Shown here: piece after piece, positions 38,404 to 50,073 of the stretch
Layout: each line of letters begins with the position of its first letter
How positions within the stretch are numbered: the stretch's first letter is position 1
IMG/VR virus record: IMGVR_UViG_3300013212_000088
Span: 160,001-224,000 of that record
DNA from: a virus
Lineage: Duplodnaviria > Caudoviricetes
Strand: one strand, 5' to 3'
DNA: 64,000 bases
Translations under genes and position numbers: made by a program
Notes under the pieces: generated by a model
The model's input: only the letters and a program-made list of their open reading frames with translations
Told to the model about the DNA's origin: nothing
Database searches by the model: none

Positions 38404-38879
38404 TACTTTCCTGTGCTACCAAGTCCACCCTTGCGAGTTTTGTTAGCAGTTTGTCCAAACTCACTTACTTCTACTAGTTCATGAGCGGCTAACTTTGCTA
38501 CGACCATTTGTGCAATTCGATCACCATCATTAATTGTGAAAGGAATCTTGTTATGGTTGAAAAGGATAACCTTAAGTTCGAAATCCTCTCCATCACCAGA
38601 ATAATCACAATCAATAGTTCCAGGTGTATTTAAAACAGTTACACCATGTTTTGCAGCTAGCCCAGAACGTGGACGAATTTGAATTTCATATCCTTCAGGA
38701 ATATTTACATTCAATCCAGTTGGAACAATTAAGCTATTATGAGGGTGAATCATCATCCCGCTTTTAAAATCTGGAATACAAGCACACAAATCATAACCTG
38801 CTGCTCCTTCAGTTGCCTTCTTAGGGATTACAGCCCCTTCACGAAATGCTTTAATCTCAACCTTTGCGACAATATCCAT
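38403..38879 (-). CDS. dut: dUTPase (trimeric)
   Basis: AAGYDL, RPRSGLA, GTIDCDY, GDRIAQ, RKGGLGSTG. Confidence 0.95.
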   Translation of the reverse strand: MDIVAKVEIKAFREGAVIPKKATEGAAGYDLCACIPDFKSGMMIHPHNSLIVPTGLNVNIPEGYEIQIRPRSGLAAKHGVTVLNTPGTIDCDYSGDGEDFELKVILFNHNKIPFTINDGDRIAQMVVAKLAAHELVEVSEFGQTANKTRKGGLGSTGK

Positions 38880-39205
38880 TAGATAGATTCCTTCATAATT
38901 TGTTCTGGAGATACTTCAGCTTGATTCAAATCAACAATTAATTTAATTGGATCAACTCTAGCTCTCAAGTTAGTAGCAAAATTATATAACTCTCTTCCTT
39001 GAAGAATTCTTGACATTCCAGTAATTTCTTTTATGTCTTCTAAACTTAAAGGAGATTGAAATATAGCTTGTGTTTCAACATCTTGCAATACTAGCCAAAG
39101 AGTTTTCTTAACCACAGGAACTTCTTCAGTCCCTTCGTCTTCTTTAACAACTGCATCGATAATTTTTACCATTCTCTCTTGCAGATTTTGATTTTCTTTA
39201 GCCAT
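38879..39205 (-). CDS. Hypothetical protein
   Basis: GGAG SD and its own promoter. Confidence 0.65.
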   Translation of the reverse strand: MAKENQNLQERMVKIIDAVVKEDEGTEEVPVVKKTLWLVLQDVETQAIFQSPLSLEDIKEITGMSRILQGRELYNFATNLRARVDPIKLIVDLNQAEVSPEQIMKESI

Positions 39206-42727: not shown

Positions 42728-43153
42728 TTAATTAAATAGTTCTTCGTGATCTAAGTCTCTTAATAATTTGATAATAGCTTTTACTTCTTTTCCGCTCATT
42801 CCATTATCAGAAAAATAGTTTTTAATTGCTTCATAAATCTCGTGATAATCCCTTTCGGTTTCTTCACTTATCATGTATGTAGCTTTCTTAACGGCACAAC
42901 TGAGTATGGCGTTTGCTTGATCATTATCTGTGCTAAATATATCATGATTATGATAATTGTCACGCACGAAAACACGAGAATTCACCAGTGATGAATCTCT
43001 GATCAACGTTGTCCATGGAGTACCAGCAGCATATTTTTTATTCTGGCTTTCATTGCTGTCAACCTTAAAAAAATCACTTGTAGAAATATCATCTGTGGTA
43101 AAATAATCTTCTAAAAATTGCCTTTTCTTTTTATTCCAATCAGAGCTTTGCAT
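42728..43153 (-). CDS. Hypothetical protein
   Basis: ORF; start likely the ATG at 43153 to minimise overlap. Confidence 0.55.
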   Translation of the reverse strand: MQSSDWNKKKRQFLEDYFTTDDISTSDFFKVDSNESQNKKYAAGTPWTTLIRDSSLVNSRVFVRDNYHNHDIFSTDNDQANAILSCAVKKATYMISEETERDYHEIYEAIKNYFSDNGMSGKEVKAIIKLLRDLDHEELFN

Positions 43154-43607
43154 ACTTATAATTAATACTTTCTTTGTCGTTTGAGAGAGTAAGTTTATTA
43201 CTTCCATCATCACAAGTAATTGACCACCAGACGTTATAATACCCTAAAATATCCAACACCTTTTGGCAATGAGGACATGGTTTTGCTAATCTAAACTCAC
43301 CATTTCTGTTAATTCTTACGCTAATAATTTCAATATCTGCTTGCGGGTATTTATCTTTAATCTGATATATAGCATCACACTCAGCATGAATATATGGGTA
43401 TTCTTTCCATTTTGCTATATTTAAAGATCTTCCAATTTGTAATGCTGTTCTAGATCCATCAGAAATATTATTTTTACCAATTGCAACAACTTTAGATTTT
43501 TTAATTGCAAACGCATAATGAAAAGAAGCCCTAGATTTATCCTGTTTCCATTCCTGGGACATTAATCTAAGGGCTCTTTTTACTGCTAATTCTTCCATAT
43601 TATTCAT
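43140..43607 (-). CDS. Cytidine/dCMP deaminase-family Zn protein
   Basis: IHAECDA and KPCPHC zinc motifs. Confidence 0.85.
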   Translation of the reverse strand: MNNMEELAVKRALRLMSQEWKQDKSRASFHYAFAIKKSKVVAIGKNNISDGSRTALQIGRSLNIAKWKEYPYIHAECDAIYQIKDKYPQADIEIISVRINRNGEFRLAKPCPHCQKVLDILGYYNVWWSITCDDGSNKLTLSNDKESINYKYAKL

Positions 43608-43652: not shown

Positions 43653-44027
43653 TTATAGCGCAAATTTGATGTTGATTGCAAATATTCTTGTGGAAATCCC
43701 TTTTGCTTTCTTACCACCAATTTCAGCAGTGTATTCTGATTGACGGCAAACTAAAACAGAACCATTTGTCAGACTTTCAACTTCTCTTGAAGCTAATCTA
43801 AATGCACTCATTACAGCGTTTAAGGCTGTTGGGCCTACTGACAAAACTCTTACATATTCATTTTCTTTAAGAACATGCAAGATACTTCGAGAAAGGCCTA
43901 CTGGATCTGTAGGACGCTTGTGAGGATCAGGATCGTTTGAATCTCCTCCCCTTGCACGTAAAGTTCTAACATCATTGAAACCTACTTTCTTTACTTCTGC
44001 GTCTTCAACTTTTGAAAAATCTTCCAT
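43653..44027 (-). CDS. spoVS: SpoVS-family (Alba-fold) protein
   Basis: DPVGLSRSILHVLKE, VLSVGPTALNAVMSAFRLA, VLVC pattern matches SpoVS (P.SVAGAI...IQAIGAGALNQAVKAIAIA). Confidence 0.7.
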   Translation of the reverse strand: MEDFSKVEDAEVKKVGFNDVRTLRARGGDSNDPDPHKRPTDPVGLSRSILHVLKENEYVRVLSVGPTALNAVMSAFRLASREVESLTNGSVLVCRQSEYTAEIGGKKAKGISTRIFAINIKFAL

Positions 44028-44041
44028 TTTAATTCCTTTGA

Positions 44042-45049
44042 TTATTCCAATCCAGCAAGTGACATTTTATCTTTTAAACCATCAATTGCATCATTAAACT
44101 CTTCGATAGAACAATTATACAAAGCTGCATCAAATTTTAATGTTGTAGACCCATTTAATATGTTTGAAAGAATTTTATTTTCAATTTCATTAAGATCCAT
44201 GGACATAAGATTATTTAAATTATTTCTTTCTTGAACTTTATCATAATAACAGCCTTCGTCCCCATCTTCGTCTTCACCAGTGTAAATACTTAAAGCTCTT
44301 GGAGATACTGTTTGGTACCCTGGATAAGTTTCATTGAATCTTTGAAATAGAAGTGTTGAGTGCTTAGACAACATATGCTTTCTAATTGCATTATTAATCC
44401 CTACACGTTTACATTCAGCGCAATCTCCCGCACCGAAACATATCTCTTCTGGGTTAATTAAACAATTATATTGTCTGGGTAGTTTATGAGATTTGCATAG
44501 TGGACAATTAGTAAGAGTTTCAATATTATGTCCATTTATTTTTAATTGAGTCCATAATAAATCAATATGGCTTCCTCTTAAATGTGTTGATAAAGGATTG
44601 ACCCATTTTTCGCATATAGGGCATTTGCATGATGGGTTACGTTTTCCAGCATTGTCAGCTTTAACTAAATTAATATAATTGTGCTGCAGTGCTCCAATAA
44701 AATAATTCTTAAACTCACCTGTGCCATCATATCTAGATATTTTTCTGGCATTTCTTGGCTTCCATGCTGATAAAACATTACAAAATATTCTTATATAATC
44801 TTGTTGAAAATCTTCCAATGCATCATATAAATAATGGTATTGGGTGTACCATTCTTGCAAGTGCATCATTGGCGGGTACAGCTTTATAACTTTTTTGTAA
44901 GCATTATCTATAATTCTTACATGACCGCTTGCTAAAGCTTTCTGATAATTAAGAATAGCAAATTCTAGCTTTTCTTGATGACCTGTGTAACTCTTAACAT
45001 TCTTGTTTGGTTGAACTTCAGTTTCTTGCATAATAGACCTATAAGCCAC
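44042..45049 (-). CDS. Divergent sigma-70-like factor with inserted zinc fingers
   Basis: Region 2-like EDFQQDYIRIF...WKP...FKNYFIGALQHNYINL; CPICE...THLRGSH; further CxxC pairs ending HMLSKH; region 4-like LNEIENKIL... Confidence 0.55.
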   Translation of the reverse strand: MAYRSIMQETEVQPNKNVKSYTGHQEKLEFAILNYQKALASGHVRIIDNAYKKVIKLYPPMMHLQEWYTQYHYLYDALEDFQQDYIRIFCNVLSAWKPRNARKISRYDGTGEFKNYFIGALQHNYINLVKADNAGKRNPSCKCPICEKWVNPLSTHLRGSHIDLLWTQLKINGHNIETLTNCPLCKSHKLPRQYNCLINPEEICFGAGDCAECKRVGINNAIRKHMLSKHSTLLFQRFNETYPGYQTVSPRALSIYTGEDEDGDEGCYYDKVQERNNLNNLMSMDLNEIENKILSNILNGSTTLKFDAALYNCSIEEFNDAIDGLKDKMSLAGLE

Positions 45050-45108
45050 ATTAAATAAACTTAATGTGACTATATTATAGTTTGCAACAATTAGAATGTA
45101 AATATAGT

Positions 45109-49014: not shown

Positions 49015-49983
49015 TTAAGACCAGCTATCGATGTCATCTTCAGCATCAGCGTCTTCTTCAAAGACTGGTGCTGGCTTAGGAGCAGCAGCCTTCTTCACAG
49101 GCTTTACTGGCTCTTCTACATCTTCATCATTAAAGGTCTCAACCTTAGGAGGCTTAACCACAAATGTAGTGGTCTCAGGCTCTGAACGTGAGTAGTCATT
49201 TGAATTAGCTGTTCTAATTGGCGTATGCTTGAAGATCTTTGAGAGATCGAAGCCATATGCAAAGTAGTCTTCCCATGGTGGCATAGATGGATCACTCTTG
49301 GCTTCCTTTTCGTACTTAAAACGCTCAGTCTTAAGTTCGTCAGCAGATGGCTCTCCAGCCTTGCGAAGCATTTCAAGCATTTCATCTGTAATTTTGATAG
49401 TCTTAACAGATGAAACATTTACTTCATATTCAACTGACTTAGGAGCTGGTTGACCAGTGGCATTTGCTGTAATTCTAACTGGGAAAGAATTACGAGTTCC
49501 AAGGTGGAAAATGAAAGCATTGCGCTCATCTTCATCGAGGTCTTCCATATCCTTAAGGCGACCATTCTGCCACTTTGCCAATTCCTGGAAAATAGACTTA
49601 CCCTTCTTGAGGACCTTAGGCACCCAAGTACCATCTTCTTGCTGCTCAAGACAATTTTGAGCAAACTGAAGCGAAGAGATATAACCCATCTTCTTCCAAG
49701 GGCATTGATCAGGATCATCATGACCAATTCGGGTCATAGACTTATTGATTTCTGCATCAGGAAAAGGAAGCTTCTGAGTCTTGCCCTTCTGACCTGGAAC
49801 ATAGACCTTGTCTTGATACTCAAGAAAAACTACAGGGTCACCAACGAGACGGAGCTTGCGCTCTACTTTAGGGCTGTCTCTGACAGACAGATTAACGAGG
49901 ATTTCTCCAAGCTTCGGGAATGACGATGAAGAAGTTAGTGGCTTCATATTCATCATCTGGGCAGTTGACATTCGTCTAAGCAT
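49015..49983 (-). CDS. Putative phage ssDNA-binding protein (gp32-like)
   Basis: RKLRLVG, QCP, KVLKKGKSIF, acidic tail EEDADAEDDIDSWS; next to recA; high-expression codons. Start at ATG 49983 after a GGAG SD. Confidence 0.7.
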   Translation of the reverse strand: MLRRMSTAQMMNMKPLTSSSSFPKLGEILVNLSVRDSPKVERKLRLVGDPVVFLEYQDKVYVPGQKGKTQKLPFPDAEINKSMTRIGHDDPDQCPWKKMGYISSLQFAQNCLEQQEDGTWVPKVLKKGKSIFQELAKWQNGRLKDMEDLDEDERNAFIFHLGTRNSFPVRITANATGQPAPKSVEYEVNVSSVKTIKITDEMLEMLRKAGEPSADELKTERFKYEKEAKSDPSMPPWEDYFAYGFDLSKIFKHTPIRTANSNDYSRSEPETTTFVVKPPKVETFNDEDVEEPVKPVKKAAAPKPAPVFEEDADAEDDIDSWS

Positions 49984-50073
49984 TTTAATTTTCTCCAAGA
50001 GGGAGTACTATTGACTCCACTGTTTTAAGTTTATTGTATTTTTTGATATTTCGCAAGGACTAATTGAAATAAT

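What the first reader, a model, noticed from the sequence alone, without database searches (positions are those of the whole stretch)
44042..45049. Sigma-70-like protein with zinc fingers replacing the region 2-4 linker
Seen: a region 2-like block (EDFQQDYIRIF...WKP...FKNYFIGALQHNYINLVK), then a C2H2 finger (CPICEKWVNPLSTHLRGSH), further CxxC pairs (CPLC, CAEC...HMLSKH), and a degenerate region 4 (LNEIENKILSNILNG...). I know no described sigma factor with this architecture. The fingers could supply new promoter specificity or metal/redox control. It is the third sigma-type gene in the window.
Basis: partly seen in the sequence, partly recalled or inferred. Interest (0 to 1): 0.68.

Follow-up and report, generated by a model that had tools for sequence, protein, structure and literature searches.

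The report
Zinc-finger sigma factor of giant phages
A giant uncultivated freshwater phage encodes a protein built like a bacterial sigma factor (the RNA polymerase subunit that chooses promoters), but two or three zinc-binding fingers sit where the usual middle domain would be, an architecture I found described nowhere; its function is untested.

Summary
Curated HMM libraries do not detect it. Fold and profile evidence agree it is a very divergent sigma-70-family protein. Residues ~22-135 fold as a sigma-2 domain, with top structural hits almost all sigma factors. hhalign to Bacillus phage G gp300, an annotated sigma factor, gives P 5.9e-6. A fingered family member scores 23.9 bits on Pfam Sigma70_r2 (cut-off 24). 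Residues ~276-335 resemble a sigma-4 HTH, with weaker support. Between them lie two C-x2-C...H-x4-H fingers with eight conserved ligands, a third Cys4 cluster found only in some members, and an acidic disordered linker. The gene has its own near-consensus host-type promoter. It is single-copy, and the phage record has no RNA polymerase. A SpoVS-like gene follows it tightly in all 36 related viral loci. Two canonical sigma genes lie 9-13 kb downstream. The most likely role is an early phage sigma factor that redirects host RNA polymerase, with the fingers occupying the sigma-3 position. RNAP binding, zinc binding and promoter specificity are untested. This scan has flagged the same family on four other genomes, and one follow-up there reached the same reading.

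The parts
44042..45049 (-). Maximal ORF of the zinc-finger sigma-like protein (335 codons from GTG; probable start ATG at 45031 gives 329 aa; stop codon 44042-44044)
   Evidence: start inferred
45074..45102 (-). Sigma-70-type promoter TTTACA-17-TATAAT (11 of 12 matches) directly upstream of the gene
   Evidence: Only 7 of 76 upstream gaps in the genome score 10/12 or better. Similar elements are visible upstream of the gene in relatives L006, L008, L010, L015, L017, L020 and L022
44645..44986 (-). Sigma-2-like domain (residues ~22-135; regions 1.2-2.4)
44714..44761 (-). Conserved basic insertion (residues 97-112, KPRN.RK.SRY.G.GE) between regions 2.2 and 2.3, at the position of the -10 specificity loop of ECF sigma factors
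   Evidence: about 10-13 extra residues relative to true sigma factors in hhalign alignments; many invariant columns. The link to the specificity loop is my inference
44534..44635 (-). Zinc finger 1 (C143, C146, H156, H161; C-P-x-C-x9-H-x4-H; two short strands then helices in the model)
   Evidence: ligands invariant; secondary structure; zf-Di19 (C2H2-type) matches in 10 of 41 members
44327..44512 (-). Zinc finger 2 (C182, C185 ... H225, H230), sharing the CPxC...H-x4-H-xx-LL[WF] pattern of finger 1, with a variable insert between the Cys pair and the His pair
   Evidence: model helices 208-229 and 231-241
44411..44464 (-). Third Cys cluster (C196, C204, C210, C213) inside the finger 2 insert; present only in the longer sub-family, with the second Cys replaced by His in some members
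   Evidence: alignment columns 201-225
44225..44317 (-). Acidic, predicted-disordered linker (residues ~245-275; pLDDT below 50 over 250-274)
   Evidence: Equating it with the sigma-3.2 / ECF linker is inference from its position
44045..44224 (-). Sigma-4-like helix-turn-helix domain (residues ~276-335; C313 and G333 invariant in the core family)
43653..44027 (-). SpoVS-like gene (124 aa), starting 14 nt after the stop codon; probably co-transcribed
   Evidence: present in all 36 related viral loci, starting -28 to +14 nt from the stop. SpoVS support: Pfam E 0.021, PDB 2eh1 E 0.25, 30 of 30 named Atlas neighbours
35117..35845 (-). Canonical SigH-like sigma factor of the same phage
31340..31894 (-). 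Canonical ECF-type (sigma-2 plus sigma-4) sigma factor of the same phage

Best explanation
The gene encodes a highly divergent sigma-70-family protein of a giant phage. Its sigma-2 domain would bind the beta-prime clamp helices of the host RNA polymerase and open the -10 element. Its C-terminal sigma-4-like HTH would bind the beta flap and a -35-like element. In place of the sigma-3 domain it carries a module of about 110 residues with two Cys2His2 zinc fingers, plus a third Cys4 site in this sub-family. An acidic disordered linker follows, in the position of sigma region 3.2. The gene is read early from its own host-type promoter. The protein then redirects the host core enzyme to a class of phage promoters, as one step of a three-sigma cascade. 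The zinc module most likely gives structural bracing or an extra DNA or RNAP contact near the extended -10 / spacer position. Shown here: homology and fold of sigma-2, the conserved ligand pattern, gene context, the promoter, and the absence of a phage RNAP. Inferred: zinc binding, RNAP binding, promoter specificity and timing.
Confidence: 0.6

Rival explanations
1. It is a sigma-derived RNAP-binding protein that no longer directs initiation. It could be a decoy that occupies the sigma site on host core enzyme for host shut-off, or an appropriator that remodels another holoenzyme.
For: It is very divergent from working sigma factors and no curated HMM detects it. The phage already has two canonical sigma factors that could cover middle and late genes. 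I found no cognate promoter class. It is expressed from an early-type promoter, as shut-off factors are.
Against: The sigma-4-like HTH and the aromatic/basic residues of regions 2.3-2.4 (F113, Y116, F117, K130, K136, R137) are invariant or nearly so across the family. That conservation is expected if DNA is still read and is unnecessary for a mere decoy. The full sigma-2 ... sigma-4 order is retained.
Confidence: 0.15
2. It is a sigma factor whose zinc module is an on-board metal or redox switch. [quoted passage not shown]
For: There are up to 12 Cys in the protein, and the extra Cys4 cluster varies between sub-families. CorE/CorE2 and OrbS show that sigma factors can carry their own metal sensors (PMC8999054, PMC7826278, PMC9023288).
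Against: The two invariant sites are Cys2His2, a ligand set that is typically structural (general knowledge, not tested here). The ZAS signature H-x3-C-x2-C is absent from the sequence. The model shows no confident docking of the module on sigma-2 or sigma-4 (pTM 0.41).
Confidence: 0.1
3. It is not an RNAP subunit at all. It would be a zinc-finger DNA-binding regulator or replication accessory protein whose helical N-terminal domain only resembles sigma-2.
Against: Profile-profile links to three independent true sigma references are specific to the matching domain. A family member all but reaches the Pfam Sigma70_r2 cut-off. The canonical sigma genes of this phage also sit among replication genes, so the location does not argue against a sigma role.
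Confidence: 0.07

Closest known systems
[quoted passage not shown]
   Same: It is the closest sequence relative of the sigma-2 domain (hhalign P 5.9e-6). Both end region 2.4 with a K-R-N/S motif. Both have sigma-2, then a linker, then a sigma-4 HTH. Both come from phages without their own RNAP.
   Different: [quoted passage not shown] They lack the basic insertion of about 10-13 residues in the region 2.2/2.3 loop. gp300 is not followed by a SpoVS-like gene.
Group 3 and group 4 (ECF) sigma-70-family factors such as SigH, SigB, sigma-32, SigW and sigma-E
   Same: The sigma-2 and sigma-4 folds, their order, and an acidic connecting segment like region 3.2 or the ECF linker.
   Different: Group 3 factors have a three-helix sigma-3 domain, and ECF factors have only a short linker. 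Here a zinc module of about 110 residues fills that position. Curated sigma HMMs do not detect the protein.
CorE/CorE2 (ECF238) and OrbS, ECF sigma factors with on-board metal-binding cysteines
   Same: Sigma factors that carry their own metal ligands. CorE-type factors even have a CXC motif in the sigma-2/sigma-4 linker (PMC8999054, PMC7826278).
   Different: Those are short Cys motifs and C-terminal extensions of about 20 aa that sense Cu, Cd, Zn or Fe. They are not folded Cys2His2 fingers inserted between the domains.
Phage sigma cascades: SPO1 gp28 then gp33/gp34, and T4 gp55 with gp33 and the gp45 clamp
   Different: gp55 lacks sigma-4 and uses a clamp-binding tail. The target keeps a sigma-4-like domain, and its C-terminal tail motif does not recur on other proteins of the phage. 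No sequence similarity to these proteins was detected in PHROGs.
Zinc-binding anti-sigma (ZAS) domains such as RsrA, RslA, ChrR and RsiW
   Same: [quoted passage not shown]
   Different: ZAS domains are separate proteins with an H-x3-C-x2-C signature on a helical bundle. Here the ligands are C-x2-C...H-x4-H on the sigma chain itself.

Membership tests
Sigma-70 family of RNA polymerase sigma factors | Sigma-2 domain (regions 1.2-2.4) fold and homology | tested here: met
Sigma-70 family of RNA polymerase sigma factors | C-terminal sigma-4 helix-turn-helix domain | tested here: met
Sigma-70 family of RNA polymerase sigma factors | Detection by curated family HMMs (Pfam Sigma70_r2/r4, TIGR02937). 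This is a practical criterion, not a biological one. | tested here: not met
   No sigma model hits the window protein even at E 10. Family members come close: P0127 23.9 bits against a cut-off of 24, P0154 19.3 bits.
Sigma-70 family of RNA polymerase sigma factors | Binds RNAP core (beta-prime clamp helices, beta flap) | not testable with these tools
   No complex prediction tool was available. The phage record has no RNAP of its own, so the host enzyme would be the partner.
Sigma-70 family of RNA polymerase sigma factors | Confers promoter-specific initiation | not testable with these tools
   A motif search of 76 upstream regions gave no class assignable to this factor.
C2H2-type zinc fingers (Pfam zf-Di19 as nearest model) | C-x2-4-C ... 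H-x3-5-H ligand set conserved | tested here: met
   Two sets are present, C143/C146/H156/H161 and C182/C185/H225/H230. They are invariant in 22 sequences and at 90% or more in 41. The Cys-to-His spacing is 9 residues in finger 1, shorter than the classical 12, and about 39 in finger 2.
C2H2-type zinc fingers (Pfam zf-Di19 as nearest model) | Match to a curated zinc-finger model | tested here: inconclusive
   zf-Di19 hits 10 of 41 members at E 0.1 or better. The best is P0141 at 27.6 bits against a cut-off of 27.5. The window protein itself scores only E 1.1.
C2H2-type zinc fingers (Pfam zf-Di19 as nearest model) | Beta-beta-alpha fold and bound zinc | tested here: inconclusive
   The model shows two short strands then helices at finger 1. 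No structural hit was convincing for residues 136-245 (best Foldseek hit HOIP RING2-LDD, E 0.64). Zinc binding itself cannot be tested here.
Zinc-binding anti-sigma (ZAS) domain | H-x3-C-x2-C signature | tested here: not met
   The translated sequence contains no such spacing.
T4 gp55-type late sigma | Sigma-2-only protein of about 185 aa with sequence similarity to gp55 families | tested here: not met
   No PHROG or Pfam hit to gp55 families. The protein is 329-335 aa and has a sigma-4-like domain. A structure of the T4 late complex (7d7d chain F) matches only at the level of the shared sigma-2 fold.

The most novel reading that the evidence does not exclude
The zinc-finger module is a third DNA-reading head of the sigma factor. 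It would recognise a promoter element between -10 and -35, at the extended -10 / spacer position normally contacted by sigma-3, so these giant phages would use tripartite promoters read by sigma-2, the fingers and sigma-4. The factor might act together with the always-adjacent SpoVS-like protein as a two-protein specificity unit.
Probability: 0.2. Interest if true: 0.8.

Novelty: new variant of a known kind. Interest (0 to 1): 0.62.

Why it matters
Sigma factors are among the best-studied transcription proteins. Their known domain variations are limited to the loss of sigma-3 or sigma-1.1 and to terminal extensions. A conserved family with folded zinc fingers in the sigma-3 position would be a new way of building promoter specificity or regulation into the sigma chain. 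It would also show that curated HMMs miss a whole clade of phage sigma factors. The family is restricted to giant phages of roughly 260-480 kb that also carry two or more canonical sigma genes. Working out what it reads would help decode the temporal gene programme of these uncultivated viruses. It could also provide an orthogonal sigma/promoter pair for synthetic biology.

Tried and rejected
1. Direct HMM scans of the protein (Pfam, PHROGs, NCBIfam) gave nothing useful.
2. A family-profile search against PDB sequences gave only spurious uS7 and RING hits.
3. tblastn and megablast against 50,697 cultured-phage records found no match. Only a profile search found phage G gp300.
4. Foldseek against PDB and BFVD gave no hit at E 0.001 or better, although sigma factors head both lists.
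5. A genome-wide search for a promoter class for this factor (dyads and k-mers over 76 upstream regions) was dominated by AT-rich background and gave nothing assignable.
6. I tested the idea that the conserved C-terminal K-M-S-L-x-G-L-E is a sliding-clamp-binding tail, like that of T4 gp55. The motif class occurs on 4 protein tails against 4.1 expected by chance, and none of the others is a replication protein. The idea is unsupported but not refuted.
P0154 and P0141 have no kin in the viral-contig collection. So I could not tell whether the finger-less relatives occupy the same RecJ / SpoVS slot.
9. hhalign of the C-terminal domain against the SigH-like family's region 4 was weak and out of register (P 0.04).

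Full report
**Observation.** The window is bases 160,001-224,000 of a 261,424-bp IMG/VR virus record that CheckV estimates as 73% complete. The flagged ORF lies on the minus strand at 44042..45049 and has 335 codons counted from a GTG. The ESM Atlas record begins at residue 7, an ATG at 45031, and the closest homologue is 329 aa, so that ATG is the likely start. The neighbours on the same strand are replication and nucleotide-metabolism genes. They include RecJ, a DnaG-type primase, RecA, Pol III alpha, the beta clamp, clamp-loader subunits, both ribonucleotide reductase subunits, dUTPase and a dCMP-deaminase-like gene. Two canonical sigma-70-family genes lie at 35117..35845 (SigH-like) and 31340..31894 (ECF-type).

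**A real, conserved, narrow family.** More than 100 clusters of unnamed proteins match at 36-93% identity, on contigs of up to 421 kb. An exhaustive profile search of 1.84 billion representatives found only 68 at E 0.001 or better. Thirty-six IMG/VR loci carry the gene, on viral contigs of up to 479 kb. In 22 diverse sequences, eight Cys/His residues are invariant: C143, C146, H156, H161, C182, C185, H225 and H230. In 41 sequences reaching down to 15% identity they stay at 90% or more. The exceptions include the finger-less members P0154 and P0162, which have no Cys at these positions. Both fingers share the pattern C-P-x-C ... H-x4-H-x-x-L-L-[W/F], which suggests a tandem duplication. A third cluster (C196, C204, C210, C213) sits in a variable insert inside finger 2 and exists only in the longer sub-family, which includes this protein.

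**Is it sigma-like? Curated models.** Curated HMMs find nothing: Pfam, PHROGs and NCBIfam give no sigma hit for the window protein.

**Sequence evidence.** The family profile finds Bacillus phage G gp300 (E 0.009 within that genome). hhalign gives 85% probability and P 5.9e-6 over 78 columns spanning regions 2.1-2.4, up to a shared K-R-N/S motif. gp300 carries a sub-threshold Sigma70_r2 hit and an obvious sigma-4 HTH. It matches the window's SigH-like sigma by BLASTP at E 6e-6. A 2025 paper annotates it as a sporulation-type sigma factor (PMC12484599). Domain-matched hhalign against alignments of the window's two true sigma families gives P 3.2e-4 and 9.4e-4 for sigma-2 and 5e-3 for sigma-4. 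All mismatched controls give 0.13-0.76. The fingered member P0127, recruited at E 2e-29, scores 23.9 bits on Pfam Sigma70_r2 against a cut-off of 24. Protein-language-model neighbours are sigma-factor clusters. I take homology of the N-terminal domain to sigma-2 as established. The sigma-4 assignment is probable.

**The middle.** The fingers start right after the K-R-N motif that closes region 2.4, which is where sigma-3 begins in group 1-3 factors. The nearest curated model is the C2H2-type zf-Di19. It hits 10 of 41 members, with the best at 27.6 bits against a cut-off of 27.5, but scores only E 1.1 for this protein. No structural match for residues 136-245 was convincing, and I could not fold the module alone. 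An acidic segment with pLDDT below 50 follows at residues 250-274. By its position it corresponds to region 3.2 or the ECF linker, which is my inference. The loop between regions 2.2 and 2.3 carries a conserved basic insertion of about 10-13 residues. In ECF factors that loop forms the pocket for the flipped -10 base, which is general knowledge, so an altered -10 specificity is plausible.

**Context and likely mechanism.** The gene is single-copy, and the record holds no RNAP beta or beta-prime. Any sigma would therefore act on host core enzyme. A TTTACA-17-TATAAT promoter (11 of 12 matches) sits directly upstream. Only 7 of 76 upstream gaps in the genome score that well, and similar elements precede the gene in relatives. 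This points to early expression by the host primary holoenzyme. Complete relatives of 315-479 kb keep this gene together with a SigH-like and ECF-type pair about 10-15 kb downstream. The simplest model is therefore a cascade in which this early factor redirects host RNAP. A 124-aa SpoVS-like gene follows within -28 to +14 nt of the stop codon in all 36 viral loci, so it is a candidate partner.

**Comparison with what is known, and novelty.** A jumbo-phage survey describes only minimal HTH-type and RpoD-like phage sigma factors (PMC7824862). ECF reviews describe Cys-rich extensions and a CXC linker motif in CorE-type factors, and an iron-sensing extension in OrbS, but no inserted fingers. Full-text searches combining sigma factor, zinc finger / C2H2 and phage terms found nothing relevant. 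I class this as a new variant of a known kind. The same scan has flagged the family on four other genomes, and one follow-up there reached the same reading. That is not independent evidence.

Noticed in passing
window 43653-44027 (-): A SpoVS-family gene of 124 aa always follows the zinc-finger sigma-like gene. It starts -28 to +14 nt from the stop codon in all 36 related viral loci and is at least as conserved as the target (42-98% against 40-99% identity). It may be a cofactor or regulator of the sigma-like protein.
   Followed up: partly
L046 (Armatimonadota MAG SZAS-3, contig JAFDWS010000002.1, 1.36 Mb; target homologue at about 177.8 kb): The whole module (orf327, RecA, primase, RecJ, zinc-finger sigma, SpoVS-like, RNR, with SigH-like and ECF-type sigma genes nearby) lies at 52% GC inside a 1.36 Mb contig. 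The same contig carries many ordinary bacterial ECF sigma genes farther along. It is either a giant integrated prophage or an assembly chimera. IMG/VR also classes one 347 kb relative as a provirus.
   Followed up: partly
whole phage record; window examples 45074-45102 and upstream of 38879-39205: Only 7 of 76 upstream intergenic gaps carry a sigma-70-type promoter scoring 10 of 12 or better. Host-type early promoters therefore look rare and may mark a small early gene set.
   Followed up: partly
window 49999-50073 (upstream of 49015-49998), and four other upstream regions elsewhere in the genome: The 8-mer ATACAATA occurs in 5 upstream regions against 3 of 3,040 control segments, in four cases 11-33 nt before the start codon. 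It could be a -10-only promoter element.
   Followed up: no
proteins P0124-P0138 and P0156 (distant family members, not in the window): Some distant members carry an extra C-x2-C ... C cluster inside the C-terminal domain. One 587-aa member has a long run of repeated finger-like units after the sigma-2 domain. The number and placement of zinc sites therefore vary across the family.
   Followed up: no
protein P0100 (197 aa): A short homologue, 59% identical over 47% of the query, is recorded with Pfam Endonuclease_7 (PF02945). This may reflect a homing-endonuclease insertion or a fused gene call at this locus in some relative.
   Followed up: no
window 42728-43213 and 43140-43607 (-): The dCMP-deaminase-like ORF and the next ORF (161 aa, no family hit) overlap by 74 nt as called. 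The 161-aa ORF is kept but poorly conserved in relatives (24-33% identity in most), and its start may be mis-set.
   Followed up: no
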